Shown in pieces: positions 9,729 to 59,299 of a stretch of DNA of 64,000 bases. Position 1 is the stretch's first letter. Each line of letters opens with the position of its first letter. Origin of the DNA: an uncultured Acidobacteriaceae bacterium (GTDB taxonomy: Bacteria; Acidobacteriota; Terriglobia; Terriglobales; Acidobacteriaceae); NCBI GenBank assembly GCA_963832235.1, contig CAWHTJ010000001.1, positions 159,870 to 223,869 on the forward strand, given 5' to 3'. The notes below the pieces were generated by a model that did no database searches, was not told where the DNA came from, and worked only from the letters and a program-made list of their open reading frames with translations. A program made the translations under genes and the position numbers.

Positions 9729-9925
9729 GTTTCGCGATGAACTCCCGTAACCGCCTTCCGGTTACTGCATCGAGTTACTCCCGTCGAGCATGGCCCCAGG
9801 TACATCTCCCTCCCGTGCGTTGAAAATGCCTCGGACGCGGCTGTAGATAAAGAGTAGGTCAAGTCTCCGCCAACCCGCCAAACACCACTTCCACGCGGGT
9901 TTCCGGCTAGGGACAGGGAGAACAA

Positions 9926-11200
9926 ATGCAGATCGGCGTCTACGGTTCGGGATACCTGGGAACGGTGATTTCGGCCTGCCTGGCGGATTTTGGCACGCCG
10001 GTTTCCTGCTGTCATCCCGACCGGTCGCGCATGGTTGAGATGGCGCAGGGCAACATTCCCTTCTTCGAAAAAAATCTGAAAGAAATCATCCGGCGCAACG
10101 TGCGCGCCGGGCGGCTGGCTTACTCCACTGACATTGAATCCTTCGCCCGCAAGACACAAGTGATTTTCCTGGCGGAAGACAAGGCGGAGGGCCTGGGCGA
10201 CATTGCCATGCGCATCGCGCGGCTGGCGTCCAAGCCTCCGATTCTTACGATCGTGACTCCCGCTCCCGTGGGCACCGCGGCGCAAGCTGAGAAAAGAGCA
10301 TCAAAGACGCCGGGCTGCAGGCGACGATCGTGTCGCAGCCAATGTTCTTCACCGATGGCTGCGCGGTTGAAGATTTCAACTGGCCCGACCGGCTGATTCT
10401 GGGCTCGACTTCGAACGAAGCCGTGCAGATGCTGAAGCAGATTTTTCATCCGCTGGTCATGCGCGGCGTGCCGGTGATTGTGACCAACCAGGCGACCGCG
10501 GAACTGGTGCGCGAAGCGGCGACAGCGTTTGTCGCGACAAAGATTTCCTTCATCAACGAAGTGGCGGCGCTTGTGCGAACGGGTGAACGCGGACGCCGTG
10601 AACCTTGCTCTGGCTCTCGGCCTGGACAAAAAAATCGCTCCCGCGCTGCCTGCAGCCCGGAGCGGGCATGGGCGGCGTATTCGCCGAGTCCGACATGGAT
10701 TCACTGGTGGAATTGGCGCAAGTCGCATGGCGTGCCGCTGAAAGTGCTGAGCGCCGCGCGCGATGTGAACACTTATCTCGCCGACCGCCTGGTCGATAAG
10801 ATTTCGCTGGTGTTGAATTCGGTCGAGAACAAAGACGTCGGCATTCTCGGGCTGGCCTTTAAGCCGAATACGAATTCGGTGGCGGGATCGTCGTCGGTGC
10901 GGCTGGCCGAGAATCTGGTGTCGAAAGGGCGCGCGCGTGCGCGCCTATGATCCGGTGGCGATTCCGGAAGCTAAGATTCGGCTCAATGGATCGGTGCGCT
11001 ACTGCGATTCTGCTTACGCCGCTGCGGAAGGTTCCGACGCGCTGGTCGTGGGCACGGGCTGGCCGGAGTTTCGCGCACTCGATTTCGACCGCATCAAGCA
11101 TCTGCTGAAGAAGCCCGTCATCGTCGACACCAAGAATCTGCTGGATTCGACTCGTCTGCGGGCGCTGGGATTTGAATACGTCGGCGTCGGGCGCGGGTAG
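9926..11200 (+). pseudogene. ugd: UDP-glucose/GDP-mannose 6-dehydrogenase family gene, 5 frameshifts
   Basis: N-terminus MQIGVYGSGYLGTVISACLA (GxGxxG). Conserved protein runs through frames 2>1>2>0>1>2, shifting near 10295, 10573, 10649, 10722 and 10927. Catalytic GGSCFPKD position reads GGVFAESD. Confidence 0.85.
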
Positions 11201-33109: not shown

Positions 33110-33395
33110 GCGCCCAGAGACTCCGCTGTCTCTGGAGCATTCTTGCGTCAGCCCGAAGCGCGCAGAACTATCTTTCGCCCCGCTGGGGCTGGCCACGGAT
33201 TTGGCATTCCACCCACGGCTTTCGCCGTGGGCTGCATTCTTGCGCCGCTTAGCGGCTAAAAAGCGGAAGAGTCCCAGATTCCGGATTGGGGGACGTAACC
33301 CTTTCGTAACCCTCCCCGGTGCACAATTTTTGTTGCACTTTAACATTCGTGAAATATCTTGCATGTAGACTTGAAAGATCAGGAGGCCGCTGCCA

Positions 33396-36296: not shown

Positions 36297-36597
36297 CCGC
36301 TTAGACGCGTTCCGACCTCCGGGACGCGGTTCCATCCTCGCGCCAGAACACCCGGCGTTGAAACGCCGGGCTATTTTCAGATGTCCCTCCGGGACAAGCG
36401 CGGTTTTCCATCCGCCGCACCTGTACAGCATCTTCCGTAATCTCTCACCTCTACTTACGTGTGTGCGATATTCGGATTGGCCACTAGGCCAGCAACTGCC
36501 GAAGGCCACCAATTTCAAACACCCGCATGACCCAGGTGTCAGGCGCTTTCGTACTCAGCAAGTGACGAGCGCCGCGCGGAGACCCAAGGAAGGTCAC

Positions 36598-38219: not shown

Positions 38220-38222
38220 ATC

Positions 38223-38351: not shown

Positions 38352-39564
38352 GTGACCCCGACCGCAATTACGCCCACGACCCCGGAGCAGCGCTCTAAAT
38401 GTGCCTGTACCCTGGCCGAGGTGCGCCCCGGCGTCCCCATCTCGCGCGAGGCCGCCCTGCACTTCATCCGCTGCCCCGACGACGATTTTCCCGAACTCCT
38501 CGCCGCCGCGCGCGCGGCCAAAGAACGCTTCAAGCCCGGCGTCATCACCTACTCGCGCAAAGTCTTCCTGCCGCTGACCAATCTCTGCCGCGACTATTGC
38601 GGATACTGCACTTTCCGCCGAGATCCCGGCGACCCCGGCGCACACACGATGGCTCCCGACGAAGTTCTCGCAGTCGCCCGCGCCGGAGAAAAACTGGGAT
38701 GCACCGAAGCCCTCTTCTCTTTAGGAGACAAGCCCGAACTGCTCTTTCCCGAGATGCGCGAGGCTTTGCGCCACCTCGGATACAAGTCCACGCTGCACTA
38801 TCTGGAAGCCATGTGCGAACTCGTGCTGCGTGAGACCACTCTGCTCCCGCACCCAAACCCAGGCCTCCTCAGCGCGGAATGGATCGCGCGACTGGGCGCC
38901 GTCTCCCCCAGCATGGGGCTGATGCTCGAAACCACAAATTCAGCCTTGCTCGCTCCCGGCGCGGCTCACGACAACGCTCCCGACAAAGTTCCGGCCAAGC
39001 GCCTGCGCACCATAGAAGAAGCGGGCAAGCAGAATGTGCCGTTCACGACCGGCTTGCTAATCGGAATCGGCGAGTCTGCTAGAGGACCGTGTCGACACGC
39101 TGCTCGCAATCCGCGATTTGCACGACCGCTACGGCCACATCCAGGAAGTAATCGTGCAAAACTTCCGCGTCAAGCCGGCGATTCCCATGGCCCACTGGTC
39201 CGAGCCTACCCGCGGGGAGATGCTGCGCGCCGTGGCGGTAGCTCGCTTGTTACTCCCTAACGTGAATATTCAGGCTCCGCCCAATCTCTCCGCGCCTTAC
39301 TATGAAGAGTTAGTGGACGCGGGCATCAACGATTGGGGAGGAATTTCGCCGCTGACCCCCGACTACATCAATCCGGAAAAGCCCTGGCCGCACCTGGAGC
39401 AACTGCGCCTGCGCACCGAAGCCAGGGGATTTGCCTTGCACCAGCGTCTGCCGGTATATCCGGAATTTATTTCTGCCGTAACGGCCAAGCCCGGACTCCT
39501 GTCAGAAAAAGTGCGCGCCGCGGCCACCGATCAAGGCTTGGCAAAAATAAAGAGGGCGGCATGA
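38352..39564 (+). pseudogene. cofG: FO synthase subunit CofG (radical SAM), +1 frameshift near 39081
   Basis: CRDYCGYC radical-SAM motif. GLLIGIGES in frame 0 continues as EDRVDTLLAIRDLHDRYGHIQEVIVQNF in frame 1. Putative GTG start at 38352. Stop overlaps the cofD ATG (ATGA). Confidence 0.85.
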
Positions 39565-40552
39565 TTTGCGTCCTCAGCGGCGGCACCGGCGGCGCCAAGT
39601 TTATCGATGGGCTCCAGCAGGTCATGCCCGCCCAGGAAATCACCGTGGTCGTCAACACCGGCGATGACTTGCTCTGGTGGGGGCTTTACGTCTCCCCCGA
39701 CATCGACTCCATCACCTACGTGCTCTCCGGCATGCTCAGCCGCGAACGTGGATGGGGCGTGAAAGGCGACACCTTCCTCTGCCTGCAGGCCATGGGACAA
39801 CTCGGCGAGCCCACGTGGTTCCACACCGGCGACCGCGACCTGGCCATGCACCTGCTGCGTTCGCGTCTGCTGGCCGAGGGCAAGACACTCTCCGATGCTA
39901 CCGCCGTCATCTCCGAAAAACTCGGCGTGAAGGCCCGCGTTCTCCCCATGAGCGACTCGCGCGTCGAAACCCGCGTCGATACCCGGCCGGCGAGTTGAGC
40001 TTTGAAGAGTATTTCGTGCAGCGCTGGTATCAGGACCCGGTGAACTCGGTGCGCTTCGCCGGCGCATCCGACGCTGAACCGGCCCCAGGTGTGATCGACG
40101 CTATCGTCTCTGCCGAGGCAGTGATTATCGCCCCCAGCAATCCCATCACCAGCATCGGTCCGATTCTGGCGGTGCCTGGCATTCGCGAAGCGCTGCTGCG
40201 GTGTCACGGAAAAGTTGCCGCCATCAGCCCGATCGTCGGCAACGCTCCTGTCGCGGGTCCGGCGGGAATTCTCATGGCCGCGCAGGGATTGCCCTGCTCG
40301 ATCGTCGGCGTCGCGCACGCGTACGAGGAATTCATCGACGTCCTGGTCTGCGACAATCGCGACAACCGCGCCGCCGAACTGCTCCGCGCCAACGGCTTGG
40401 GCGTCAAGTGCACGCAGACCATCATGCGCACCGCCGAAGACAAGGCGGCCCTCGCCCGCGAAGTGCTCGCGTTCGTTTCGAAAGCTCCGGGGACCCGCGA
40501 TGAGCCGAGGGCCCGTGGCGCCGCCTTTCGACGTTTGGACCATCAACCGTGA
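39561..40552 (+). pseudogene. cofD: 2-phospho-L-lactate transferase CofD, -1 frameshift near 39984-39989
   Basis: MICVLSGGTGGAKFIDGL... in frame 0 continues as GELSFEEYFVQRWYQDP...IAPSNPITSIGPIL in frame 2. Confidence 0.85.
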
Positions 40553-41221
40553 TTCTCATCCCCGTCAAGAACCTGTCTTCAGCCAAGCAGCGTTTGGCTG
40601 CGGTTCTCGATCAACCCTCCCGCACAGCGCTGGCGCAGGCCATGCTGCATGACGTACTGGCCGCCCTGCACGGCTGGAAAAATCGTCCGCCGGTTGCGGT
40701 CGTCACCAGCGATCCATATGCGATAAAGCTGGCCACCGAATATCAGTTCGAAATCATCCCCGACCCCGCCAATCCGGGAGAAACCGGAGCCATCGAGATG
40801 GCCACCAACATCTGCGTCGGGCGTGGAGTCGATAGCACACTGGTGATCCCGGCCGACATTCCGCTGATTCAAGCGTGGGAGCTCGAAGAAATTCTGAAGC
40901 ACGCCCCCGCCGAAGGCAGCGTCCTGGTCCCCGCCGCCGACGGACGCGGCACCAACGCCGCCTTCCGCCGTCCCGCAAATCTGTTCCCCCTGCGCTTCGG
41001 CAACGACAGCTTCAAACCGCATCACGCCGCCGCGCAAGCCACCGGCAAACCGTGCGTAGTGCTGAATCTCCCGGGAATTGCCGTAGACGTAGACAATCCC
41101 GTCGGATCTGCAAGAACTCGCATCGCTCCCCGGGGAAACCCGCGCCCAACGCCTAGCCCGCAAATACGCCCACGTAGCGACAGCCACCTCGGCTGTCCAG
41201 CCGCGCAGCGGCGAGATATGA
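40549..41221 (+). pseudogene. cofC: Guanylyltransferase CofC/FbiD, +1 frameshift near 41104
   Basis: MILIPVKNLSSAKQRLAAVL... GTG start overlapping the cofD stop (GTGA). After VDVDNPV the conserved DLQELASLPGETRAQRLARKY continues in frame 2. Confidence 0.8.
41174..41198 (+). repeat. REP family 2 hairpin (inside the 3' end of cofC)
   Basis: GTAGCGACAGCCACCTCGGCTGTCC. Confidence 0.7.
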
Positions 41222-41248
41222 AAGCTCAGCATTGTCGATCGATAATCG

Positions 41249-42142
41249 ATGTCTTATGAGCAAGCCCGCTGCAGCACAGAAGAAACCAGCCGCGAAGCGG
41301 CGCAAGGATTCAGCCCACGGCGCCAGCCGTGGGTTAGCGGTCCAAGAAATGCCAGCCCCGAAGAGGCGAAAGAAAATCCCGCCGCGACCTCCGATGAACT
41401 TCGCCTGATCCCAATCCCACTCGCCGACGAAATCCGCCCCGGCGACTCCCTCGCCGACAAACTCCTCGCATCCCTCCGCCGGCGCCGCCTCGCTTCCAAC
41501 CCGGCGACATCCTGATCGTGAAACACAAAATCGTCTCCAAATCCGAAGGCCGCCTGGTCGATCTGGCCACGATCAGTCCCTCCGCTGAATCGATCGCATG
41601 GGCGAAACAATACGAGCTCGACGCCCGGGTCATCGAGTTGGCTCTGCGCGAGAGCCGCGCCATCATCCGCCGCAAGAACGGCGTGCTCATCACCGAGACC
41701 CACCACGGCTTCCTCTGCGCCAACAGCGGCGTTGACGTCTCCAACGTCAACGGAGGCAGTCACGCGCTGCTGCTCCCCGAAGATCCAGACCGCTCCGCCG
41801 CCAACCTTCGCCGCGCCCTCAAGAAGCAGAACCGGCCTCGCCATCCCCGTCATCATCACCGACAGTTTTGGCCGTCCCTGGCGCGAAGGCCTGACGGAGT
41901 TCGCCATCGGCATCGCCGGAATGAAGCCGCTGCGCGACGACCGCGGCCGCCGCGACTCCCACGGCTACAAACTGCGCGCCAGCATCGAAGCCGTCGCGGA
42001 CGAACTGGCCTGCGCCGCCGGCCTCGTCTGCGGCAAACTCAACCGCGCCCCCGCCTGCATCGTCCGCGGATTCCGCTACGAATCCGGCCCGGGAAAAGTC
42101 AGCGACCTGCTTCGCCCCGCATCCACCGACCTATTCCGCTAA
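41249..42142 (+). pseudogene. cofE: F420-0:gamma-glutamyl ligase CofE, two frameshifts (-1 near 41493, +1 near 41830)
   Basis: ELRLIPIPLADEIRPGD (frame 2) > FQPGDILIVKHKIVSKSEGR...ANSGVDVSNV (frame 1) > TGLAIPVIITDSFGRPWREG...CIVRG (frame 2). True start is uncertain. Confidence 0.8.
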
Positions 42143-42157
42143 AACTTCCGCTACACT

Positions 42158-42239
42158 GTAGAGACGTTGCTTGCAACGTCTCTTGCCGGCGCCGGCAGTC
42201 GCGACGTGGTGAGAGAGACGTAGCAAGCTACGTCTCTAC
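42158..42239. repeat. REP family 1 doublet, copy F
   Basis: GTAGAGACGTTGCTTGCAACGTCTC...GAGACGTAGCAAGCTACGTCTCTAC, between cofE and cofH. Confidence 0.9.
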
Positions 42240-42353
42240 GGAGAGTGTCATGCCGCGAACTCACGCCTTCGGAACTGGAAGCTTTTCCTTCGCTCGAATG
42301 GTCTCGACGTTGCGCCGCGCCTGACTCCCGCGCTGCGGTCTTCGTTAGAAAAG

Positions 42354-43482
42354 GTGCTCGAAACACAGAACGGCGCCGACTTGTCGTTGGAAGAGTCCTA
42401 CGCGCTGGCCAACTCCGAAGGCGACGATCTGCTCGGCCTGTTGGTCGCCGCCAACCTGCTGCGCGCCGAACTCGCCGGCAACATCGTCACCTACGTGGTC
42501 AACCGCAACATCAATTTCACCAACATCTGTTTCGTGGGATGCAAATTCTGCGCCTTCAGCCGCGGCCCGCGCGAGTCCGACACTTACTTCCTCACACTCG
42601 ATCAGATGGCGCAAAAAGCGGTGGAAGCCTGGCAACTCGGCGCCACCGAAGTCTGCATCCAGGGCGGCCTGCCCCACGATCTTCCCAAGTTCCACTATCG
42701 CGACATTCTCCGCGCCATCAAGAACGCCGTCCCGCGCATGCACATCCACGCCTTCTCGCCGATGGAAATCGTCTACGGCGTGGAACTCACCGGCATGCCG
42801 CTCGCCGACTACCTTTCCATGCTGCGCGACAACGGACTGGGAACGCTTCCCGGCACCGCCGCCGAAATTCTCGACGACGAGATTCGCCACATCCTGTCCG
42901 CCAACAAACTTTCCACCGCACAATGGGTCGAGGTGATCCGCACCGCGCATCGCTGCGGCATTCGCACCACTTCGACGCTGATGTACGGACACACCGAAAC
43001 TCCCGCGCACTGGGTCCGCCAGATGCGGCTGCTGCGGCGAGATTCAATCCGAGACCGGAGGCTTCACCGAATTCGTTCCTCTCGGCTTCGTCCATCAGAA
43101 CACGCTGCTCTTTCATCAGGGTCTGGCGCGCACCGGCCCAACGCTGGCCGAGCATCTCAAAGTTCACGCGCTGGCCCGCCTGCTGCTCGCCGGATCGATC
43201 AACAATATTCAGGTTTCGTGGGTAAAGCTGAATCGCCGCCTCTCGCAGCTCTGCCTGCACGCCGGCGCCAACGACTACGGCGGCACTTTGATGGAAGAGA
43301 ATATTTCCCGCGAAGCCGGAGCGACCGCAGGCCAGTACACCAGCCCGGAAGATTTTCAATCGCTGATTCTCGAAATGGGTCGCATCCCCGCCGAGCGCAA
43401 CACAACTTACTCCCGCATCCACATCAAAGTGCCGCTCAACGAATGCATCGCCGAACAGTCGTTCGAGGCGGAATTCGCATGA
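42354..43482 (+). pseudogene. cofH: FO synthase subunit CofH (radical SAM), +1 frameshift near 43038
   Basis: NICFVGCKFCAF radical-SAM motif. MYGHTETPAHWVRQMRLLR (frame 0) continues as EIQSETGGFTEFVPLGF...GANDYGGTLMEENIS (frame 1). The N-terminal boundary (GTG at 42354) is uncertain. Confidence 0.85.
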
Positions 43483-44181
43483 ACTCCAGTCTCGAAGGCG
43501 GCCGTCCGATCGCAGTCATCGGCGGCACCGGCCCCGCCGGCATGGGACTCGCCCTGCGCTGGGCGCGCGCCGGAGAAACCATCATCATCGGCTCGCGCGA
43601 CGAGAAGCGCGCGCAACAGGCCGCCGCATCCATCCAGCAAAGAATTGGAGGCGAGGCCAAAATATCGGGCATGGAAAACAGCGCCGCCTGCGCCGCCGCC
43701 GACATCCTGATGCTGACCGTTCCCTTCGAAGGTCAAGCCTCGCTTCTCAAGAAACTCAAGTCCGTCGATCACCGAGGGCAGCATTCTCATTGACGCCACC
43801 GTGCCCCTGGCTGTCGGCGTCGGCGGACGCGCCTCGCGCACTCTCGGCGTCTGGCAAGGCTCCGCCGCCCAGCAGGCCGCCGAACTCGTGCCCGATGGAG
43901 TGAGCGTGGTCGCCGCCTTCCACAACGTTTCCGCCGAACTGCTCGGCACCGACACTCCGCTGGACTGCGACGTCGTCGTCTGCAGCGACGATCCCGATGC
44001 TGGGCAACTCACCCGCGAACTGGCGGCAAAGATTCCCGGCGTCCGCGGCATCGACGGCGGCAAACTCGAAAACGCACGCATCGTTGAGCAGATCACCGCC
44101 TTGCTCATCGGCATGAACTTCCGCCACAAAGGCCACGCCGGAATCCGCATCACCGGCCTGCCACCTGACGCTTACCGCTGA
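43479..44181 (+). pseudogene. fno: NADPH-dependent F420 reductase (Fno/NpdG), +1 frameshift near 43770
   Basis: IAVIGGTGPAGMGLALRWARAGETIIIGSR (frame 0) continues as TEGSILIDATVPL...VVCSDDPDAG...GKLENARIVEQ (frame 1). ATG overlaps the cofH stop (ATGA). Confidence 0.8.
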
Positions 44182-44208: not shown

Positions 44209-45777
44209 TTGAGCGAGAAAAGCCGCGAGAACGTTCACGAGAATGAGAACCTCGACGCAGGCTTGCAGTATCACAGCGGCACCAAGCATTCCTATCAAAG
44301 CCTGCGCATGCATCCGCACTTCCTTGACTGGGAGAACAAGCCTCTCCTATTCAAAATTTATCCCACGCTTGAAGTCACGCGCCTTCCCCGGGATTTCCAT
44401 GAAACCGACCGCGCCGCGCTTTCCGCGATTGCCGACTCCGGTGCTCCGGCGCAAGCCGAAGCCATCCCCGATCTCGAAACTCTGGCGCAGTTGCTGTTTT
44501 TCTCCGCCGGCGTCATCCGCAGCAAGAAACATCCGCAGGGAGAAACTTTTTTTCGCGCCGCCGCCTGTACCGGCGCGCTTTACGAAATCGAACTCTACGT
44601 CGTTTGCACCGATCTTCCGGGCAGAGCCGTGCCCGGCGTGAAGAATCCTCCAGGACTTGCGGCCGGCGTCTACCATTTCGGCGCGGCCGAGTTCGGTTTG
44701 CGCCAACTCCGCTCCGGCGATTTCCGCCAGGCGCTTGTCGACGCCACTGGCGGCGACGCATCTGTGGCCCACGCTCCCGTCACGATCATCTGCACCGGCA
44801 CCTATTGGCGCAACGCATGGAAATATCACTCCCGCACCTACCGCCATTTCGGCTGGGATAATGGCACCATTCTCGCCAATCTTCTCGCCATGTCCGCCGC
44901 CTCAAATCTTCCCGCGAAGGTCGTCGCCGGTTTCGTCGATTCTCAGGTGAACGCCCTGCTCGGACTCGACACCAATCGCGAAGTCGCATTCTCCCTGGTC
45001 CCCATTGGCTACGCACAATCGCCGCCATCCAGTTCGCCTCCAATTGCCCCGCTTGAGTTGCCGGTCGTTCCCTACTCCGAGTCGGAAGTCGAATATCCCG
45101 CCATGCGCAAAATGCACGAAGCTTCCTCGCTCGATTCCGCGGCCGAGGTAGATGCCTGGCGCGGCAAGACACCGTCGCACGAGCTTCCCGCCCCGAAGGG
45201 AACTATCACCGCGCTGCAGCCGCTCGACGACTCCGCCATTCCTTCCGACTCCATCGAGCAGGTAATTTCGCGCCGCGGCTCTGCCCGAAAATTCGCGCGC
45301 GATCCCCTCACTCTGCCCCAGCTTTCCACGATCCTCGACCGCGCCACGCGTGGAATTTCCGCCGACTTTCTCGATCCCGTTGGAAGCCATCTGAACGATC
45401 TGTATCTGATCGTGAACAACGTGCTGGGCCTCACCCCCGGAGCCTACGTTTACCACTGGGAGCAAAAGCTACTCGAACTGCTAAAGCCCGGAGACTTCCG
45501 CGACAAAGCCGGCTACCTGGGACTCGAACAACAACTCCCTGCCGATGCCGCCGTCGACGTATTTTTCCTCGCAGACTTGAAGAGAATTCTGCAGCGCTAC
45601 GGAAACCGCGGATATCGCGCCGTACAACTGGAAGCCGGCATTCTCGGCGGCAAACTCTATCTCGCCGCTTACGCGCAGCGCCTGGGCGCCACCGGCCTGA
45701 CCTTCTATGACGACGACGTAGCCAGTTTTTTTCTCCCCACGCCCGCGGGAAAAGCGCGATCTTCCTCGTCGCCCTAG
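44209..45777 (+). CDS. SagB/ThcOx-type (nitroreductase-fold) two-domain dehydrogenase
   Basis: TTG start. LQYHSGTKHSY...FLDWENKPLLFKIYP N-terminus typical of SagB-type proteins, then two nitroreductase-like halves. The C-terminus may continue in another frame to 45800 (T7 run at 45726-45732). Confidence 0.7.
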   Translation: MSEKSRENVHENENLDAGLQYHSGTKHSYQSLRMHPHFLDWENKPLLFKIYPTLEVTRLPRDFHETDRAALSAIADSGAPAQAEAIPDLETLAQLLFFSAGVIRSKKHPQGETFFRAAACTGALYEIELYVVCTDLPGRAVPGVKNPPGLAAGVYHFGAAEFGLRQLRSGDFRQALVDATGGDASVAHAPVTIICTGTYWRNAWKYHSRTYRHFGWDNGTILANLLAMSAASNLPAKVVAGFVDSQVNALLGLDTNREVAFSLVPIGYAQSPPSSSPPIAPLELPVVPYSESEVEYPAMRKMHEASSLDSAAEVDAWRGKTPSHELPAPKGTITALQPLDDSAIPSDSIEQVISRRGSARKFARDPLTLPQLSTILDRATRGISADFLDPVGSHLNDLYLIVNNVLGLTPGAYVYHWEQKLLELLKPGDFRDKAGYLGLEQQLPADAAVDVFFLADLKRILQRYGNRGYRAVQLEAGILGGKLYLAAYAQRLGATGLTFYDDDVASFFLPTPAGKARSSSSP

Positions 45778-45865
45778 GCCGCAGCGCGGCTCGCAAGTAA
45801 GGCTTCCGGCTCTCGGCTTCCGGCTTCCGGAACACGCACGATTGGAGACGCTCAAGACTGTTTGT

Positions 45866-46079: not shown

Positions 46080-47484
46080 TTACTCTTCCGCCACCGGTCC
46101 CGTCATCTCTTCCGCCGGCTCTCCGCCTGCCATCGCCTGCGCAATGATCAGCTTCCGCGCTTCCACCCGAATCTTCGGCAGCTGCACGCTAAACCACCAC
46201 GCTCCCAGCACCGAGGCCAGCCCGCCAATCGCGACCGTCAGCGGTGCGCCCAGCCGATCCGACAACGCGCCACCCAGCAGCGCTCCAATCGGCGCCATTC
46301 CCATGAACATCATCGAATAGACCGCCATGGTCCGGCCACGCAAGGCGTCGGGCACCATCACTTGAATCAGCGTATTCGACGAGGCCATCTGCAACATGAT
46401 GAAATATCCTACCGGCATCAGCAGCAACACAGAGAGCCAGAACGATCTTCGAAAACGAAAACAGCATCAGGCTCACTCCGAACCCCGCGCAGCATACCGA
46501 TACCCACGTTCCCAAGCCCTTCACTCCCGAGCGCACAGCCAAAGTAAGCGCCCCCAAAAGCGCTCCCACGCCCGCTGCGCCCATCAGGATTCCCAGCCGC
46601 ACCGCTCCCAAATCGTGCGATCCGATCAGCGAAGCGAACTCCTGTCCGCCGCCGCGCAAAATCTTGTCGGCAAAAATCGGCATCAGCACCACATATGGCA
46701 TGCCCGTCACGCTCACCAGCCCCAACAGGATCATAAGGGCTCGAATCGGAGCCGTGCGATTCACGAACCGGAATCCTTCGAGCATGTGCTCCCACGGCGA
46801 CGTCTTGGCCGAAACCCGCGCCGGAGCAAGCACATCCATCATCATCAATCCGGCGATGACGGCAATGTAGCTGGCGCCATTCACGAAAAAACACCAGCCT
46901 TCGCCCAGCCTCGCCACCAGGACGCCCGCCACGGCCGGTCCAATCACGCGGGCGCCATTGAACATGGAGGAATTCAGTGCGATGGCATTCATCAAGTCTT
47001 CCTTGCCCACCATGTCCACCAGGAACGACTGGCGCCCGGGAATATCGAACGCATTCACTACCCCCAGCAGCGCCGCCAGCACGAAGATATGCCAGACCCG
47101 CACGGTATGTGTCAGGGTGAGCGCCGCCAGCACGAACGCCAGCAGCATCGACGCGACCTGCGTGCCGATGACTACATGCTTGCGGTTGCTGCGATCCGCG
47201 ACAATTCCGCCGAGAGGAGCAAACAAGAAGACCGGAATCTGGCTGGCAAATCCTACCGCGCCCAACTTCAACCCCGAACCCGTCAGCCGGTAGACAAGCC
47301 ACGACTGCGCCACGGTCTGCATCCAGGTGCCGATCAGGGAAATCAGTTGTCCGCTGAAAAAAAGCTGGAAGTTGCGGTGGCGCAGCGCCCGTCCCGCAGC
47401 CTGCCAGCGCACTCCGCGACTTGCGGGCACAGCTTCGCCGTTGGCAGGTGCGTTTTCTGGAGAGGAAGTCTTCGGCTCAGCCAC
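46080..47484 (-). pseudogene. MFS transporter (EntS/MFS_3-like), +1 frameshift near 46431-46436
   Basis: ...FGVSLMLFSFSKIVLALC in one frame continues as VLLLMPVGYFIMLQMASSNTLIQVMVPDALRGRTMAVY in another. Corrected length is 468 codons. Confidence 0.75.
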
Positions 47485-47754
47485 AGGTCATTTGGAATAA
47501 CGATTCGCCATCCACTGCACTACTATATCGTGAGCGTTCGCGGATGATTGCGAGGTCACCTGTTTGCACTCTTCATCTGCGCCGAAATCCACTTTGTGGT
47601 GCCGTCGGTTCCCGATTCCAATCCGCTAAACCTAGAATTATGAGTGCCTTGGTGAAAGCCAAGAATCTTCTAACTTGGCCCTTCTCTTATTTCCCGCCGT
47701 GCGCTAAAGTAGCGCCTGCGCGTTGGGCGATTCGGCAAAGGATGGACGCCACTT

Positions 47755-49908: not shown

Positions 49909-50454
49909 CTACTTCCGAACCGCCTGTCGCGGCACCGCATCCTGCGGAAACATCTTGAACACCACTTCCCGCGAATGCGGCGTCACTTTCTTGTTTACGT
50001 CGCTGGCGTTTTCCGTCAGCGTACCCTTGAGCACGAAATACCCCTCATCCCCCGGATTCTTCCCGTCGCCGCGCTCCACCGTTCCCTTAAAGTCGAAAGC
50101 AATCCCGTGAACAACCTCCGTCGTAAAGCTCAACTTGTTCGCTTCCATCTTCCCGCTCTTGAAGAACTGATCCAGGAACGCCCCCTTGTCGCTCTCCCCA
50201 TCGCCGAATCGCGAAACGAATCCCGAGACATGTCCCGCTTCTTCCACCGTCACCTGCACAAATTCCCCTTCCTTCAAGAACGAATACATCCCCGAAAATT
50301 CCTGCCCACTCTTCCCATCTGGAGCCCGCGCCGCGGCCGTGGCTCCTGACTTCGTGTCAGCCTTCGCCCCCTGTGCCAACAGTTCCTCCGAAGAACCCAG
50401 CAGTCCCCAGGCAAGTATTAGCGGAGCCATAATAATGAAATAGTTTTTTTTCAT
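49909..50454 (-). CDS. Hypothetical secreted protein
   Basis: MKKNYFIIMAPLILAWGLLG signal peptide. No family recognised. Confidence 0.55.
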   Translation of the reverse strand: MKKNYFIIMAPLILAWGLLGSSEELLAQGAKADTKSGATAAARAPDGKSGQEFSGMYSFLKEGEFVQVTVEEAGHVSGFVSRFGDGESDKGAFLDQFFKSGKMEANKLSFTTEVVHGIAFDFKGTVERGDGKNPGDEGYFVLKGTLTENASDVNKKVTPHSREVVFKMFPQDAVPRQAVRK

Positions 50455-50605
50455 TGACACCGTCCCCGCTCAATCGTACTCCAAGTCGCCATTCAAAGAG
50501 CAAACCGCAGCGCCGTCCTTGTCGTGGGGGCGTCCCAAATTAAAAAGCTCCAGCCCCTCCGGCTGAAGCTTCGAATCCGATGCCACAACGCCTTATTTCT
50601 ACCCA

Positions 50606-51136
50606 TCACTTCCCCTTGGTCGCCTTACCGTCCATCACCGTCGTCCACTTCGTCCCATCTTGCGACATTTCGTATGTGAAGTTGTACGACGTGGGCGAAG
50701 CGATCTTCATCGTGAACCGCCCTTTCATAATCATCCCGTTCATCTTGTCGTCGCCGGTCCAAATCCAGGTGTCGCCGTCAACGGAACCCTTCGACTCCAT
50801 GAACTCTCCCAGACTGTTGAACTCACGATACGTGTATGCCTTGTCACCGCCGGAATATCCAAAGATCGAAACCCCAGAGACATCACCCATCGAGCTCTTA
50901 AAGTCCGCGTGGCAAAGAAGGAAGAAGCCTCCTTCCATCCACTCGCACTTTTCGTTCTCCGAGATCTTCCCGCCCGGCCCCATCGCGCTGGGCTTCATGT
51001 CCCCCTCCAGCGTCCACGCCCCCACGAACATGTCGAGCTTCTTTTGCTCCGGCCCCGGCTTCGGCAACTCCATCTGCGCCACCGCCGCTCCCGCCAATAG
51101 CAGACACGCCGCAAAAATCATTCCTGTGTTTTTCAT
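50606..51136 (-). CDS. Secreted DUF1579-like protein
   Basis: Signal peptide MKNTGMIFAACLLLAGAAVA. FVGAWTLEGDM...EWMEGGFFL...FGYSGGDKAYTYREF pattern. Confidence 0.5.
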   Translation of the reverse strand: MKNTGMIFAACLLLAGAAVAQMELPKPGPEQKKLDMFVGAWTLEGDMKPSAMGPGGKISENEKCEWMEGGFFLLCHADFKSSMGDVSGVSIFGYSGGDKAYTYREFNSLGEFMESKGSVDGDTWIWTGDDKMNGMIMKGRFTMKIASPTSYNFTYEMSQDGTKWTTVMDGKATKGK

Positions 51137-51248
51137 CGCATGCCTCGTGAGATTGAATCGCTGTTTGCCGTTGAACAGCAACCGCGGCTGCGGCGAAATA
51201 GTAGTCTCACTCCGAGAGCACCGTCAACCACGTTCTCCCAGTTTTCAA

Positions 51249-51279
51249 ATCAACAATCAACAATCAACAATCAACAATC
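51249..51279. repeat. Heptanucleotide microsatellite (ATCAACA)x4.4
   Basis: Four perfect 7-bp units starting at the stop codon of the 51271-51756 gene. Reads TTGTTGA on the coding strand. Confidence 0.9.
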
Positions 51280-51756
51280 GCTCTGCCAGTCTCCCCAATG
51301 CGACGCGGTCATCTGTTGAAACTTCATCTTCCACGCGTCCCCTTGCTTCACCCAAACCGTGCTGAAGTGCTGATACCGCGGCGGCGGCCCTTGATCCTGC
51401 GCTGGCGGAACGCGCAGCACCACATCGTAAGTCACAATCGCCACACCTTCTGCTGCCATCACCACCTTCATATCGTACGGCTGCAGATTAAGCCCACCCT
51501 CTGCAAACTGGTCCAACATGTCCTGCCGGGTATACAACTGCCCGTCGAACGCCACAAAAGAAAAGTCGTCGGTCAGCGTGCGCTTGAAAAAAGCCGCGTC
51601 GCCCTTCTTAGCTGCGTCCACAAAACTCATCTCTGCGCTCATCAGCTGCTGCTCCAAGGGACTCAAAGCCTTCGCCGGCGCATTCGCCTGTCCAGCCCCT
51701 ATCACCGGCAACACGCAACAGAGCAGAATCATGAACCCCACGAAACCGTATTTCAT
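51271..51756 (-). CDS. NTF2-like (DUF4440/SnoaL-like) secreted protein
   Basis: Signal peptide. DAAKKGDAAFFKRTLTDDFSFV...STVWVKQGDAWKM, typical DUF4440 pattern. Confidence 0.55.
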   Translation of the reverse strand: MKYGFVGFMILLCCVLPVIGAGQANAPAKALSPLEQQLMSAEMSFVDAAKKGDAAFFKRTLTDDFSFVAFDGQLYTRQDMLDQFAEGGLNLQPYDMKVVMAAEGVAIVTYDVVLRVPPAQDQGPPPRYQHFSTVWVKQGDAWKMKFQQMTASHWGDWQSDC

Positions 51757-51811
51757 TCCGTCTCCCTTACAACGTTGTCAGCCCAAGGAGCGAAGCGCTC
51801 CATACAATGTT

Positions 51812-51842
51812 GTCATTCCGAGAAGCGAAGCGACGAGGAACC
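51812..51842 (+). repeat. Short GTCATTCCGAG-headed repeat unit
   Basis: GTCATTCCGAGAAGCGAAGCGACGAGGAACC, just 3' of hisS. Confidence 0.55.
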
Positions 51843-51864
51843 TGCTGTTCTCCCACCACGGAGA

Positions 51865-53151
51865 TCACAGCCGTCCCCCTTCCTGAATCCTTCGGGGCAA
51901 TTCCCCGCGCGCCACCGAAACCTGCTCCCCCGTCGCCAGATTCTTCAAGGAGAACGCATCCGCCTTCACTTCATTCTCACCCACGATAAGAATGTACTTC
52001 GCTCCCGCCTTCGTCGCCGCCTCAAACGATTTCTTCAATCGAAATCCCTCATCTCCCAACTCGACCACCACATCATGCCGCCGCAATTCCCGCGCCAGCC
52101 GCGCCGCCTCGCCATTCATCCCCGCCCCGAGAGGCGCAATGTAAACATCCGGCTTGCGCAACACACCCTCGGCCGTCTCTTTCAAAGACATCACTAACCG
52201 GTCTTCGCCAATCGCAAACCCAATCCCCGGAGCTGCCGGCCCGCCGAGCGCCTCCGATAATCCGTCATACCGCCCACCGCCTAGAATTGCGTTCTGCGCC
52301 CCCAACGCCCCGTGCGTAAACTCGAACGCCGTCCGCGTGTAATAGTCGAGCCCGCGCACCAACCGGTCGTTTATATGAAACTCGACACCCACAGCGCGCA
52401 GAATTTCCTGCACCGCATCGAAGTGCTTGCGGGAATCCTCGCCGAGAAACTGGGTAATGCGGGGCAGCGTGTCGATGATCGGCTGATCCTCCGGCACCTT
52501 GCAGTCAAACACGCGCAGCGGATTCGTCACCGCCCGCCGCTTGCAGTCATCGCACATCTGCCCCACGACCGGTTCCAGCGCCTTGCGCAGCGCCTCATTG
52601 AACTTAGTGCGGTCGGCAGGGGTGCCGACAGAATTCAACTCCAGCTTCCAATCGCTGATGCCGATCCGGTCCAGCAATGTCGCCAGCATCTCCAGCACTT
52701 CCGCATCCCGCGCCGGAGACTCGCTCCCCGCCGACGCCGGCCCAATCACTTCCGCCCCAATCTGATAAAACTGCCGATACCGTCCCTTCTGCGGCCGCTC
52801 CCGCCGAAACTGCGGCCCAATGTAGTACAGCTTGTTCAGTCCGCGATCCCACAGCTTGTGTTCGATATAAGCCCGCACTACGCCAGCAGTATTTTCAGGA
52901 CGCAGCGTGAGCGACTGCCCCTTCTCGCTAGCCGCCCGGGGCCGATCTTCCCACGTGTACATTTCCTTGGCGACAATATCCGTCTCTTCGCCCACCCCGC
53001 GCGCAAACAACTCGGTCGCCTCGAAAATCGGCGTGCGAATCTCCTGGAAGTTGTAAGCGCGAAACAGATCCCGCACCGTTGCCTCCACAAAATTCCACAG
53101 CGCCGTCTCCGGCGGCAGCAAATCCCGCGTCCCTCGCACCGCATTTATCAT
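51865..53151 (-). CDS. hisS: Histidine--tRNA ligase
   Basis: MINAVRGTRDLLPPE...FRRERPQKGRYRQFYQ (class II motif 2)...GGGRYDGL motif 3. Confidence 0.95.
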   Translation of the reverse strand: MINAVRGTRDLLPPETALWNFVEATVRDLFRAYNFQEIRTPIFEATELFARGVGEETDIVAKEMYTWEDRPRAASEKGQSLTLRPENTAGVVRAYIEHKLWDRGLNKLYYIGPQFRRERPQKGRYRQFYQIGAEVIGPASAGSESPARDAEVLEMLATLLDRIGISDWKLELNSVGTPADRTKFNEALRKALEPVVGQMCDDCKRRAVTNPLRVFDCKVPEDQPIIDTLPRITQFLGEDSRKHFDAVQEILRAVGVEFHINDRLVRGLDYYTRTAFEFTHGALGAQNAILGGGRYDGLSEALGGPAAPGIGFAIGEDRLVMSLKETAEGVLRKPDVYIAPLGAGMNGEAARLARELRRHDVVVELGDEGFRLKKSFEAATKAGAKYILIVGENEVKADAFSLKNLATGEQVSVARGELPRRIQEGGRL

Positions 53152-53201
53152 TCCGCTCCCGTCTTCATCTTTATATAAGAATTGTCATCCTATTAAGGAT
53201 T

Positions 53202-53438
53202 GTCATCCTGAGCGAGGATGGATCTTTGCGCCCCAGCGCAAAGATCAACCGCAGTCGAAGGATTCCTACGTTTCACCCCGTGCCACAAACCCATCAGGAA
53301 GTTCTCTCGTCAAATTCGGATGATCGAATGCAGAGTGAGAATGCCTTGACACACCTGATGAGGCACTCGAGCGTCAGGGATCCTTCGACTTCGAAAACCG
53401 ATTCGCAGAGCGAATCGGTTACCTCCGCTCAGGATGAC
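53202..53438. repeat. MITE-like composite of two inverted GTCATCCTGAGCG-headed units, copy 2
   Basis: GTCATCCTGAGCGAGG-GATCTTTGCGCCCCAGCGCAAAGATC-...GCAGTCGAAGGATTCC ... GGGATCCTTCGAC...CGCTCAGGATGAC. An extra partial head lies at 53184-53190. Confidence 0.7.
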
Positions 53439-53465
53439 AACTCCCTGAATTCGATACGACAACGT

Positions 53466-53978
53466 CTATCTCTCCCGCAAATACTCATCCTTATACTCAA
53501 GATAATTCTTCGCATACCGCATGATCGTCTCCTGATCCTCCGCCTCCAACTTCCGCCGGAACTTCCCCGGAGATCCCATCCACAACGACCCTGGCTCAAC
53601 CACCGTCTTCTCCGGAATCAGCGTCCCCGCCGCGATAATCGACCCCGCCCCAATACGCGCCCCATTCAAGATAATCGTCCCCATTCCAATCAAACACCGA
53701 TCCTCAATCACACATCCATGCAGCGTCACCGAATGCCCCACCGTCACATACTCGCCTAGGTAAACGCCCCACTGCTGCTTCATCCCATGCAGCACGCTGT
53801 TGTCCTGCACATTGGAGTGAGCCCCGATCCGTATTTCATGGACATCCCCGCGGACCACCGCATTCATCCATACCGAGGCGTGCTCGCCCAGCACCACGTC
53901 GCCGATAATCTGCGCCGACTCGTCGACATAACATGTCGCCGGAATCGTCGGTCGCACACCTTTATATGAACGAATCAT
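53466..53978 (-). CDS. Gamma-carbonic-anhydrase-like hexapeptide-repeat protein
   Basis: MIRSYKGVRPTIPATCYVDESAQIIGDVVLGEHASVWMNAVVRGD..., canonical gamma-CA/YrdA pattern. Confidence 0.85.
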   Translation of the reverse strand: MIRSYKGVRPTIPATCYVDESAQIIGDVVLGEHASVWMNAVVRGDVHEIRIGAHSNVQDNSVLHGMKQQWGVYLGEYVTVGHSVTLHGCVIEDRCLIGMGTIILNGARIGAGSIIAAGTLIPEKTVVEPGSLWMGSPGKFRRKLEAEDQETIMRYAKNYLEYKDEYLRER

Positions 53979-54013
53979 AGTTTGGGAAACTGAAAGTACC
54001 ATGAGTGAGCCCC

Positions 54014-54043
54014 GTAGGGACAGCCACCACACCTCGGCTGTCC
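54014..54043 (+). repeat. REP family 2 hairpin
   Basis: GTAGGGACAGCCACCACACCTCGGCTGTCC. Confidence 0.7.
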
Positions 54044-54241
54044 GGTCAAGCGCAGCTCGACCAACGTTCGTGACTGATCGCCTTAGTGTCCCTCTGTGAC
54101 CTCTGTGGTTAAAGTCTTCCATTCCCACTCCGGGAACGATCCCTAAATAGTTCGGCTCACGTCACACAACTTTCCGCCCCTGGCATGCTATACAAATGTT
54201 GGTTTCCGAATATTCCGAGGAGAAGCCTTCCGGCGCCGCCG

Positions 54242-54267
54242 CCTGGTTAACTAACCTGGTTAACTAA
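54242..54267 (+). repeat. 13-bp direct repeat CCTGGTTAACTAA x2
   Basis: Perfect tandem copies. A third GGTTAAC lies at 54319-54325. All are upstream of the 54376 receptor gene. Confidence 0.85.
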
Positions 54268-54375
54268 CAGGATGCGTTTTCCGGCACTTCTTCGCGGAGT
54301 TCCGCGCGCCTCGCGTCCGGTTAACGCGCGTAGGATCGTCCCTCCGAGTCGCAAAAAGTACTCAGAGGCGACCCT

Positions 54376-57300: not shown

Positions 57301-57552
57301 CTCGTGCGTCTCCGCGAACGCTACAAACTCAACTTCATTGCCGAATCCTTCAACCTCCTCAACCGCGACAATCAGCGCGTCACCATCACCTCCAACGGCC
57401 TGATCAACAACGCGACAACATTCGTAACCAACTCCGTTACCGCCAACATCGCACCCTACCCCGGCTACTACCAACTCCCCACCAACTTCATGAAACCCAC
57501 CGCCGCCTACGCGCCCAGGCAAGTGCAGTTGTCCCTGAAATTCGTTTTCTAG
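54376..57552 (+). CDS. TonB-dependent receptor with carboxypeptidase-regulatory-like domain
   Basis: Signal peptide, DATGAIRGTVLDATGSRIAQASIVIVN...GDYSARVVAQGM. Barrel ends LSLKFVF. Confidence 0.85.
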   Translation: MSSTRIAALLILFFLISALAPAQDATGAIRGTVLDATGSRIAQASIVIVNTATGRRYTTTCDAEGAFALDLLPPGDYSARVVAQGMSPQVTPQLHVDIGAAAILEFHLTIAGAHENVTVSAAPTLVETQPAAVSTLLDERALNDFPLNGRRFSDLALFSPGVTQDPRSLTSASNGDLSFGGMRGFQTTTLVDGGDYNNAFFAQARGRYRAPFQISTEVVQEFRVSTNSYGAEQGRSAGAVVNVVTKSGSNHVHGTAFYHLRDSSFGAADAFLAFKPHNRQQQFGGTIGGPLKRNRIFFFAGFDQHIFHSPSIVEFLDGTSQVVPAAGTGPYTPGDYEATDQALVFAAAAQLTSLAGEYPAAQIGNSSYAKLDINLTPRHQLALRLNTTRYWGANNVFLDPASPVTYDSISDNGQELVSTETGSFSLTSGFSPRWISHLRAQFSRDRQQSYSNTSDVLIKIPKILDGIGRSNLLPRQTREHRLHLAETVSHEGSRNTWKLGGDGLLTWIYDFFPSQQSGEYLFYPIKVNPFTYAPMEAGLPLSPLRAYAHEVPKYYLQNFGSAASHPDTREYAAFAQDTIRVTDHLALNLGVRWDLQTFSTTGLLSNPLFPPSGKVPFKPYNFAPRAGLAYSFGKARPLVVRAGYGIFFVRIPQIYNSVIQTENGITDASLFLNNSNYYDHQVFPTYPNALVSCPLYSAACALPAGFTQGVTKRLSAFAPNFVTPRVQQASLTLEKEVVSHTTVALSLLSVHGEHLIRALDVNLAQPTALTYPIFDSTGSIFQGGYYTVDSFATWQFTRSLTCPFPPCINPLGRPIAQLGAINEFQSAASSYYKGATLSINRRVSRGTYLRLSYTYARAIDDGQDALVAGQPASVQNSYNPSSERGPSVTDQRQRLVAAISAEPHPFHRTQPLLGYIFNDWRISSVVNYGSGRPFSATVAGDPNQDGNDLNDRLPGYRRNAFTGPNYATTDLRVTKLVRLRERYKLNFIAESFNLLNRDNQRVTITSNGLINNATTFVTNSVTANIAPYPGYYQLPTNFMKPTAAYAPRQVQLSLKFVF

Positions 57553-57564
57553 AAAACAGGTTAC

Positions 57565-57590
57565 GTAGCGACAGCCGTCTCGGCTGTCCC
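57565..57590 (+). repeat. REP family 2 hairpin
   Basis: GTAGCGACAGCCGTCTCGGCTGTCCC, 13 nt after the receptor stop. Confidence 0.7.
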
Positions 57591-57624
57591 ACAAAAAGAA
57601 GAAAAAAGCAAATGGAGGCGGGTG

Positions 57625-57667
57625 CCCCACTCTAGTCTCTGCGTCCTTTGCAGAGACTAGAGTGGGG
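57625..57667. terminator. Perfect 18-bp-stem hairpin between convergent genes (likely bidirectional terminator)
   Basis: CCCCACTCTAGTCTCTGC-GTCCTTT-GCAGAGACTAGAGTGGGG, followed by ATTTTGACTTT. Confidence 0.6.
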
Positions 57668-57685
57668 ATTTTGACTTTCACAAAC

Positions 57686-59116: not shown

Positions 59117-59186
59117 GAGTAAAGTTTCGTGAGCCTACTCTCAGTGAAAAACTTCGTCAATCACTTGGTGGCTGCGCCACCGCAAG

Positions 59187-59238
59187 GGCGTCATCCCGAG
59201 CGGAGCCGTTCTTCAGGCGCAGGGAGGGACCTCGCGCG
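59187..59238 (+). repeat. GTCATCC-headed repeat unit (variant C)
   Basis: GGCGTCATCCCGAGCGGAGCCGTTCTTCAGGCGCAGGGAGGGACCTCGCGCG. Confidence 0.8.
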
Positions 59239-59299
59239 GACTGCAAGAGCAGCGGCCTCCCTTTGTCCCCGGTCCACAAGCGCGCTATCATCAGCCGTG

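What the first reader, a model, noticed from the sequence alone, without database searches (positions are those of the whole stretch)
38352..44181. Complete, translationally coupled F420 operon (cofG-cofD-cofC-cofE-cofH-fno) with a single-base frameshift in every gene
Seen: six adjacent same-strand genes encode every dedicated step of coenzyme F420 synthesis plus the F420:NADPH oxidoreductase. Start/stop overlaps are preserved (ATGA at 39561, GTGA at 40549, ATGA at 43479). In each gene the recognisably conserved protein jumps to another frame at one point: cofG ~39081 (+1), cofD ~39984-39989 (-1), cofC ~41104 (+1), cofE ~41493 (-1) and ~41830 (+1), cofH ~43038 (+1), fno ~43770 (+1). After removing or adding one base at each site, every gene length is a multiple of three and is typical for its family. 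Catalytic motifs are intact (CRDYCGYC, CFVGCKFC, GGTGPAG). Inference: this is either a very recent whole-pathway loss, or the indels are not in the real DNA. The possibility that expression depends on recoding is weighed under noticed_but_rejected. A cofactor operon hit in all six genes while still otherwise pristine is unusual.
Basis: partly seen in the sequence, partly recalled or inferred. Interest (0 to 1): 0.8.

Follow-up and report, generated by a model that had tools for sequence, protein, structure and literature searches.

The report
F420 operon frameshifts are assembly errors
A soil acidobacterium's operon for making coenzyme F420 looks broken by a one-base frameshift in every gene, but the same one-base errors also hit unrelated neighbouring genes and leave no other trace of decay, so they are almost certainly sequencing or assembly errors in an ordinary, intact operon.

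Summary
cofG, cofD, cofC, cofE, cofH and fno (38352-44181, + strand) each change frame at the reported sites. After single-base repair, each matches its NCBIfam equivalog end to end.

The frameshifts are not specific to the operon. cofH has a second shift at 42305. The downstream nitroreductase-fold gene (45721) and the opposite-strand MFS transporter (46446) are also shifted. An unrelated UDP-glucose dehydrogenase gene 28 kb away carries five or six more within 650 bp. About 22 kb of other coding sequence checked by homology has none.

About 16 events fall in two patches. All are 1 nt (one may be 2 nt) and 13 are insertions, mostly outside homopolymers.

No decay accompanies them:
- The repaired genes have no stop codons.
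- dN/dS is 0.117, against 0.137 in intact neighbours.
- Only 3 of 1140 columns invariant in relatives carry a window-private change, against 17 of 3093 in controls. Real neutral decay predicts many more (P = 3e-4 to 5e-12).

All ~160 relatives surveyed carry these genes unshifted at the window's sites. Nanopore-only relatives show the same single-base-insertion signature 25 times more often than short-read ones.

Verdict: patchy consensus indel errors in an ordinary *Ca.* Sulfotelmatobacter-like F420 operon. Read-level confirmation was not possible.

The parts
38352..39564 (+). cofG (FO synthase subunit 1). One extra base at about 39077-39084 (GAGTC[t]GCTAGAGGAC); 403 aa after repair.
   Evidence: TIGR03550, 446 bits, profile 1-313/322; 42 relatives span the site without the extra base.
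39561..40552 (+). cofD (2-phospho-L-lactate transferase). One missing base at 39982/3 (GATAC-CCGGCC); 330 aa after repair; ATGA overlap with cofG.
   Evidence: TIGR01819, 329 bits, 1-300/301; 55 relatives.
40549..41221 (+). cofC (guanylyltransferase). One extra base within 41098-41105 (AATCCCGTC[g]GATCTG); 223 aa after repair; GTGA overlap with cofD.
   Evidence: (TIGR03552, 155 bits).
41288..41333 (-). Acido-Lenti-1 RNA motif in the non-coding, hairpin-rich cofC-cofE spacer.
   Evidence: RF01687, 51.3 bits, gathering score 37; spacer shared with L094.
41394..42142 (+). cofE (F420-0:glutamate ligase). Missing base at 41491/2 (CGCCTC-GCTTC, CC->C) and extra base at 41828 (AAGAAGC[a]GAACC). Possible third event at about 41396: ATG 41394 lies 1 nt out of frame directly before the conserved ELRLIPIP.
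   Evidence: (TIGR01916, 244 bits).
42245..43482 (+). cofH (FO synthase subunit 2), starting at GTG 42245. Extra bases at 42305 (TGGTCT[c]GAC) and 43036/7 (CTGCTGC[g]GCGAG); 411 aa after repair.
   Evidence: TIGR03551, 490 bits; relatives 410-412 aa, up to 97% identity.
43479..44181 (+). fno/npdG (F420:NADPH oxidoreductase). Extra base at 43765 (AAGTCCG[t]CGATC); 233 aa after repair; ATGA overlap with cofH.
   Evidence: TIGR01915, 234 bits; 58 relatives.
44209..45800 (+). Tandem nitroreductase-fold (SagB-like) gene, found directly downstream of fno in L001-L004. One missing base in a T run at about 45721-45733 (T8->T7) shifts the last ~25 codons.
   Evidence: TIGR03605; PDB 3EO7, E = 3e-39.
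46080..47491 (-). MFS transporter on the opposite strand. Extra base at about 46446-46449 (+ strand GAACGAT[c]TTCGAA). Possible second extra base at 47485 (ATGACC[t]GTG), although GTG 47484 could itself be the start.
9914..11200 (+). UDP-glucose/GDP-mannose dehydrogenase gene, unrelated to F420, forming a second dense patch. It has five or six inserted bases at about 10277/10289, 10570, 10640, 10720 and 10924. After repair it is 94-95% identical to relatives and has three full-length Pfam domains.
   Evidence: (43-48 relatives support the two outer shifts).

Best explanation
The window carries an ordinary, functional-looking F420 biosynthesis operon (cofG-cofD-cofC-cofE-cofH-fno) of a Candidatus Sulfotelmatobacter-like acidobacterium. 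The frameshifts are most likely not in the organism's DNA. They are residual single-base consensus errors, concentrated in two poorly resolved stretches of the assembly: about 39.08-46.45 kb (1.4 per kb) and about 10.28-10.92 kb (9 per kb). The likely cause, by inference, is low local coverage or strain heterogeneity in a long-read, Nanopore-type metagenome assembly that was polished incompletely. Shown here: the indels are present, they are patchy, they are not specific to the operon, they come without substitutions, and the same signature occurs in Nanopore-only relatives. Inferred: the sequencing technology and the cause of the patchiness.
For: (1) The events are not specific to the pathway. 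Shifts of the same type occur in the nitroreductase-fold gene, in the opposite-strand MFS gene and in a UDP-glucose dehydrogenase gene 28 kb away. About 21.6 kb of other coding sequence compared with relatives has none; P = 2e-13 under the rate seen in patch 1. (2) The spectrum: about 16 events, all 1 nt (one possibly 2 nt), 13 of them insertions, and most insertions outside homopolymers. All three deletions can be placed in base runs; two clearly are (cofE CC->C, nitroreductase T8->T7), and the cofD one is ambiguous. PMC12007338 describes this same split for long-read assemblies. (3) No decay: no stop codons in the repaired frames. Window-private changes at columns invariant in 26-80 relatives number 3/1140 in affected genes and 17/3093 in intact genes. 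With bacterial substitution:indel ratios of 2.8-9.7 (PMC4978911), real decay gives P = 3e-4 to 5e-12 for so few changes. Pooled dN/dS is 0.117 in affected genes and 0.137 in controls. (4) All relatives surveyed carry these genes uninterrupted at the window's sites. (5) Nanopore-only MFD MAG relatives (PMC12313526) have 0.032 frameshifts per kb in conserved genes, against 0.0013 per kb in short-read relatives (p = 3e-5). All 12 of their events are single-base insertions, mostly outside homopolymers, and some are clustered.
Against: No reads, coverage data or same-species sequence were available; the closest relative is about 88% identical in DNA. The source assembly could not be identified. The artefact reading is therefore an inference from pattern, not a demonstration. 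The window's event density (0.5 per kb of surveyed coding sequence) is about 16 times that of the Nanopore relatives sampled. A very recent set of real mutations that added no substitutions cannot be strictly excluded. The larger patch does cover a plausible functional unit, the F420 genes plus the adjacent nitroreductase-fold gene.
Confidence: 0.85

Rival explanations
1. Real and very recent pseudogenisation. The lineage stopped needing F420, and the operon, its adjacent nitroreductase-fold gene and the MFS gene are decaying neutrally through frameshift mutations.
For: Every F420 gene is hit, the larger patch coincides roughly with the operon plus a syntenic neighbour, and the overlaps and motifs are still intact, as expected if the loss is very recent.
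Against: An unrelated dehydrogenase gene 28 kb away has an even denser patch. There is no substitution excess at invariant columns (3/1140 against 17/3093; P <= 3e-4 under natural substitution:indel ratios). There are no nonsense codons and no indels longer than 1-2 nt. The events are biased towards insertions (13 of 16), whereas bacterial pseudogenes are generally described as deletion-biased (my own knowledge). Most insertions are not in base runs, where natural slippage occurs. dN/dS is no higher than in intact neighbours.
Confidence: 0.08
2. Real localised mutation showers. One or two episodes of error-prone DNA synthesis, for example during break repair, scattered single-base insertions over a ~7-kb tract and a ~0.65-kb tract.
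For: The events form two tight patches and come without substitutions, which ordinary neutral decay does not predict.
Against: No such indel-only, insertion-biased showers over several kb are known to me in bacteria. The same signature appears in independent Nanopore-only assemblies of relatives and almost never in short-read ones, which points to a technical cause. A cell with about ten genes inactivated at once would have to rise to consensus frequency in its population.
Confidence: 0.03
3. Expression through recoding. Programmed ribosomal frameshifting or transcriptional slippage restores the reading frame at each site.
For: None beyond the fact that single-base repair restores full-length proteins.
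Against: The sites share no slippery motif. Both +1 and -1 corrections would be needed. None of 15-71 relatives per site has the shift. Genes of unrelated function are affected.
Confidence: 0.01

Closest known systems
Bacterial F420 biosynthesis gene clusters with separate CofG, CofH, CofC, CofD and CofE plus Fno/NpdG, as reviewed in PMC8498797
   Same: All six proteins match the equivalog models end to end after repair. Gene order and start/stop overlaps are the same in Ca. Sulfotelmatobacter relatives. F420 biosynthesis genes are already reported in Acidobacteria genomes.
   Different: As written in the window, every gene is frameshifted. CofE is stand-alone rather than the actinobacterial FbiB fusion. 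A tandem nitroreductase-fold gene sits directly downstream of fno.
Gene-fragmenting indel errors in long-read (Nanopore-type) assemblies (PMC12007338; Nanopore-only, Medaka-polished MFD MAGs, PMC12313526)
   Same: The events are single-base indels that split genes. Deletions fall at homopolymers and insertions are not tied to homopolymers. Related Nanopore-only MAGs show the same insertion signature and local clustering.
   Different: Density in the two patches (1.4 and 9 per kb) is far above the average of 0.032 per kb in the related Nanopore MAG loci. The window's sequencing technology is unknown.
Decaying pseudogene operons, as in reductive genome evolution
   Same: Several frameshifts fall in consecutive genes of one pathway.
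   Different: There is no substitution excess, no nonsense codons, no larger deletions and an insertion bias, and unrelated genes are affected.

Membership tests
F420 biosynthesis operon (CofG, CofD, CofC, CofE, CofH) plus Fno | Each protein reaches the curated cut-off of its NCBIfam equivalog over the full profile length | tested here: met
   on sequences repaired by one base per site: TIGR03550 446/213 bits, TIGR01819 329/257, TIGR03552 155/105, TIGR01916 244/181, TIGR03551 490/374, TIGR01915 234/150.
F420 biosynthesis operon (CofG, CofD, CofC, CofE, CofH) plus Fno | Uninterrupted reading frames in the sequence as given | tested here: not met
   every gene is split between two or three frames.
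F420 biosynthesis operon (CofG, CofD, CofC, CofE, CofH) plus Fno | Radical-SAM CxxxCxxC motifs in CofG and CofH, and a dinucleotide-binding GxGxxG motif in Fno | tested here: met
   CRDYCGYC, CFVGCKFC and GGTGPAG are present.
F420 biosynthesis operon (CofG, CofD, CofC, CofE, CofH) plus Fno | The organism produces F420 | not testable with these tools
   Needs fluorescence or LC-MS on the organism. PMC8498797 notes that there has been no experimental work outside Actinobacteria.
Genuine decaying pseudogenes | Disrupting lesions (frameshifts or stop codons) | tested here: met
   Ten definite frameshifts between 39.08 and 46.45 kb, but no stop codons in the repaired frames.
Genuine decaying pseudogenes | Relaxed constraint, seen as excess lineage-specific amino-acid changes or raised dN/dS | tested here: not met
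   3/1140 private changes at invariant columns against 17/3093 in controls; P = 3e-4 to 5e-12 under decay; dN/dS 0.117 against 0.137. The pairwise dN/dS is insensitive to very recent change.
Genuine decaying pseudogenes | A natural indel spectrum: mixed sizes, deletions at least as common as insertions, 1-nt events mostly in base runs | tested here: not met
   All events are 1 nt (one possibly 2 nt), 13 of 16 are insertions, and most insertions lie outside homopolymers. The expected natural spectrum is taken from my own knowledge and from PMC4978911.
Programmed frameshifting or recoding | The shift site and a slippery motif are conserved in orthologues | tested here: not met
   15-71 relatives span each site in one frame, and the sites share no motif.
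Long-read consensus indel errors | Indel-dominated events without accompanying substitutions, with deletions at homopolymers and insertions not tied to them | tested here: met
   profile as described in PMC12007338.
Long-read consensus indel errors | The same signature is enriched in long-read assemblies of related genomes compared with short-read ones | tested here: met
   0.032 against 0.0013 events per kb, p = 3e-5; all 12 events are single-base insertions.
Long-read consensus indel errors | Reads do not support the indels, or coverage or quality drops locally over the patches | not testable with these tools
   No reads or coverage data were available, and the source contig was not found.

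The most novel reading that the evidence does not exclude
The indels are real. A Sulfotelmatobacter-like population has very recently lost F420 biosynthesis, together with an adjacent nitroreductase-fold gene and an MFS transporter, through a localised, insertion-biased shower of single-base mutations that left no substitutions. A second such shower hit a UDP-glucose dehydrogenase gene. That would point to an undescribed clustered-indel mutational process in soil bacteria.
Probability: 0.04. Interest if true: 0.6.

Novelty: not a real feature. Interest (0 to 1): 0.1.

Why it matters
If it were real, the simultaneous and otherwise traceless inactivation of a whole cofactor pathway would be a rare snapshot of pathway loss, or of an unusual mutational process. 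As it stands, the value is practical. The locus shows how patchy single-base errors in a metagenome-assembled genome can mimic targeted pseudogenisation, and how to tell the two apart without reads. The checks are whether unrelated neighbours are hit, what the indel spectrum looks like, and whether substitutions accompany the indels. Annotation pipelines would score this genome as F420-negative, although the operon is conserved and intact in every related genome sampled. F420 biosynthesis genes in Acidobacteria are already documented at the genome level (PMC8498797).

Tried and rejected
- **Looking for a same-species contig to compare site by site.** The protein search and the metagenome scan gave at best 97% amino-acid identity and about 88% DNA identity, which is too distant.
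- **Apparent extra frameshifts rejected on inspection.** cofG at 39562: the C-terminus is simply 12 codons shorter. Flavin reductase at 38221 and the hypothetical protein at 50455/50498: these arise from over-long N-termini in the L003 annotation.
- **Other signals explained.** The signal at 11.79 kb lies in the short spacer between the tRNA-His and tRNA-Arg genes, not in coding sequence. The mixed-frame matches at 19.08-19.30 kb are conserved non-coding DNA upstream of the true start.
- **A shared MFS frameshift in L164.** It is a different event, a 2-nt deletion four codons away.
- **GATC or methylation-motif association of the sites.** Two of ten sites lie at GATC, which is not convincing.
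- **Regular spacing of the events.** The coefficient of variation is 0.60 with n = 9 intervals, which is not decisive.
- **The adjacent nitroreductase-fold protein as an FbiB C-terminal-domain homologue.** No FbiB hit in the PDB; the best match is 3EO7, a 'putative nitroreductase'.
Full report
**Observation.** The + strand between 38352 and 44181 encodes cofG, cofD, cofC, cofE, cofH and fno/npdG. After removing or adding one base per site, the six proteins match the NCBIfam equivalogs TIGR03550, TIGR01819, TIGR03552, TIGR01916, TIGR03551 and TIGR01915. Each match is a single end-to-end stretch above the curated cut-off. The ATGA/GTGA/ATGA overlaps and the CRDYCGYC, CFVGCKFC and GGTGPAG motifs are present.

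**Relatives.** A protein search with repaired CofH found hundreds of intact 410-412-aa orthologues at up to 97% identity. Their contigs (L001-L004) carry the same gene order:
- NUDIX, ABC-F, bactofilin, MsrB, flavin reductase
- CofG 419 aa, CofD 330, CofC 224, CofE 261, CofH 410, Fno 233
- a 522-aa nitroreductase-fold protein and a 469-aa MFS transporter on the opposite strand
- PilZ, a CbiA-like ATPase and HisRS

All of these genes are uninterrupted in the relatives. Genome and metagenome scans place the window among *Candidatus* Sulfotelmatobacter and other Acidobacteriaceae soil MAGs. No relative is closer than about 88% DNA identity. The source contig could not be found, so no same-species or read-level comparison was possible.

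**Census of frameshifts.** I ran tblastn with the relatives' proteins, scanned ORFs from 84 related loci, and wrote a frameshift-aware protein-to-DNA aligner. Multi-relative DNA alignments refined each site.

The definite events in the larger patch are:
- cofG, about 39077-39084, insertion
- cofD, 39982, deletion
- cofC, 41098-41105, insertion
- cofE, 41491, deletion
- cofE, 41828, insertion
- cofH, 43036, insertion
- fno, 43765, insertion
- nitroreductase-fold gene, 45721, deletion (T8 to T7)
- MFS gene on the minus strand, 46446, insertion

Two further events are possible. One is at 47485, at the MFS start. The other is at about 41396, at the cofE start: the only in-frame start, ATG 41249, would read through a non-coding spacer that contains an Rfam Acido-Lenti-1 motif.

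A second, denser patch lies 28 kb away in a gene at 9914-11200. It needs five or six inserted bases removed between 10277 and 10924. After that it is 94-95% identical to relatives and has three full-length UDP-glucose/GDP-mannose dehydrogenase domains. That gene has nothing to do with F420.

The same tests found no events in about 21.6 kb of other coding sequence, covering 12-31 kb, 31.4-38.3 kb and 47.7-53.2 kb. Pfam domains in the ORFs tested in the window's ends are essentially full length, with no sign of splitting. A uniform rate cannot explain the patches (P = 2e-13).

**Character of the events.** There are about 16 events. All are 1 nt, except that one may be 2 nt. Thirteen are insertions. 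Most insertions sit outside homopolymers, for example TC[t]GCT, GC[a]GAA, TCT[c]GAC, CCG[t]CGA and CCC[g]CGC. All three deletions can be placed in base runs: cofE CC to C and nitroreductase T8 to T7 are clear, and the cofD site (possibly C4 to C3) is ambiguous. The Kastor paper reports the same asymmetry for long-read assemblies: deletions at homopolymers, insertions not tied to any homopolymer (PMC12007338).

**Test for decay.** Real pseudogene decay should add several substitutions for every indel. Mutation-accumulation data for seven bacteria give substitution:indel ratios of 2.8-9.7 (PMC4978911 Table 1). The results here were:
- The repaired genes have no stop codons.
- At columns invariant in 26-80 relatives, the window has 3 private changes out of 1140 in the eight affected genes, against 17 out of 3093 in 16 intact genes. 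This is within the leave-one-out range of the relatives.
- Decay predicts 8-29 additional private changes. The probability of seeing 3 or fewer is 3e-4 to 5e-12.
- Pooled dN/dS against L003 is 0.117 for affected genes and 0.137 for controls. This pairwise measure is insensitive to very recent change.

**Analogy with related assemblies.** I used the window's intact proteins as probes against 164 related loci. The 44 loci from Nanopore-only, Medaka-polished MFD MAGs (PMC12313526) contained 10 internal frameshifts in 313 kb. The other 120 loci, from short-read MAGs and JGI contigs, contained 1 in 788 kb (p = 3e-5). Frameshift-aware realignment of those MFD loci resolved 12 events, all single-base insertions and mostly outside homopolymers. 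Three of them fall within 1.3 kb in L007. This is the same signature as in the window.

**Conclusion.** The operon is an ordinary F420 biosynthesis cluster of a kind already known from Acidobacteria genomes (PMC8498797). It is intact in every relative sampled. The frameshifts are best explained as patchy consensus indel errors of the assembly (confidence about 0.85). The likely origin is long reads with locally poor coverage or polishing; the technology and the cause of the patchiness are inferred, not shown. Real recent pseudogenisation (about 0.08), a real clustered-indel mutation shower (about 0.03) and recoding (about 0.01) remain as rivals. Only read mapping or resequencing can close the question.

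Noticed in passing
window 33212-33257 (+), 36351-36396 (+), 41288-41333 (-): Three copies of the Rfam Acido-Lenti-1 RNA motif (RF01687, 46-51 bits, gathering score 37), all in intergenic spacers. One lies between cofC and cofE, in a hairpin-rich spacer that is partly shared with relative L094.
   Followed up: partly
window 11220, 23269, 30908, 37169, 37218, 38225, 38275, 42160, 42214 (24 nt each): A REP-like 24-nt palindrome, AGAGACGTWGCWWGCWACGTCTCT, occurs nine times (none expected by chance). The inspected copies lie between genes. Six of the nine form pairs about 50 nt apart, including upstream of cofG and between cofE and cofH.
   Followed up: partly
window 44209-45800 (+): A 522-530-aa protein with two nitroreductase-fold (SagB-like) domains lies directly downstream of fno in L001-L004 as well. 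Its best solved match is PDB 3EO7, a 'putative nitroreductase'. It could be a stand-alone nitroreductase-superfamily partner of the F420 pathway of the kind cited in PMC8498797 (Braga et al. 2020), but no FbiB match was found.
   Followed up: partly
window about 19080-19300 (upstream of the minus-strand gene 17694-19100): This DNA is conserved in about 80 relatives, but they match it in mixed reading frames, so it looks like a conserved non-coding leader rather than protein. No Rfam family matched at gathering score.
   Followed up: partly
L164:4762 (MFS gene of a JGI metagenome contig): This is the only frameshift found among 120 short-read-type related loci. It is a 2-nt deletion in the MFS gene, four codons from the window's MFS indel. 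It is a different event, and the proximity is probably coincidence (roughly a 4% chance).
   Followed up: yes
L007:2149-3405; L011:3815 and 5995; L006, L012, L022, L032, L062: Nanopore-only MFD MAG relatives carry their own single-base insertion frameshifts in conserved genes, clustered in L007. Such genomes in public collections probably contain many false pseudogenes.
   Followed up: yes
window 50000-60000: GC skew on the + strand is unusually negative (-0.23 to -0.33 in 2-kb windows). The stretch includes a 1058-aa TonB-dependent-receptor-like outer-membrane protein gene at 54376-57552.
   Followed up: no
window 41357-44181 compared with its flanks: Synonymous divergence from L003 is lower in cofE, cofH and fno (dS 0.30-0.36) than in the flanking genes (0.5-1.2). 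This could reflect recombination between lineages or codon-level constraint.
   Followed up: no
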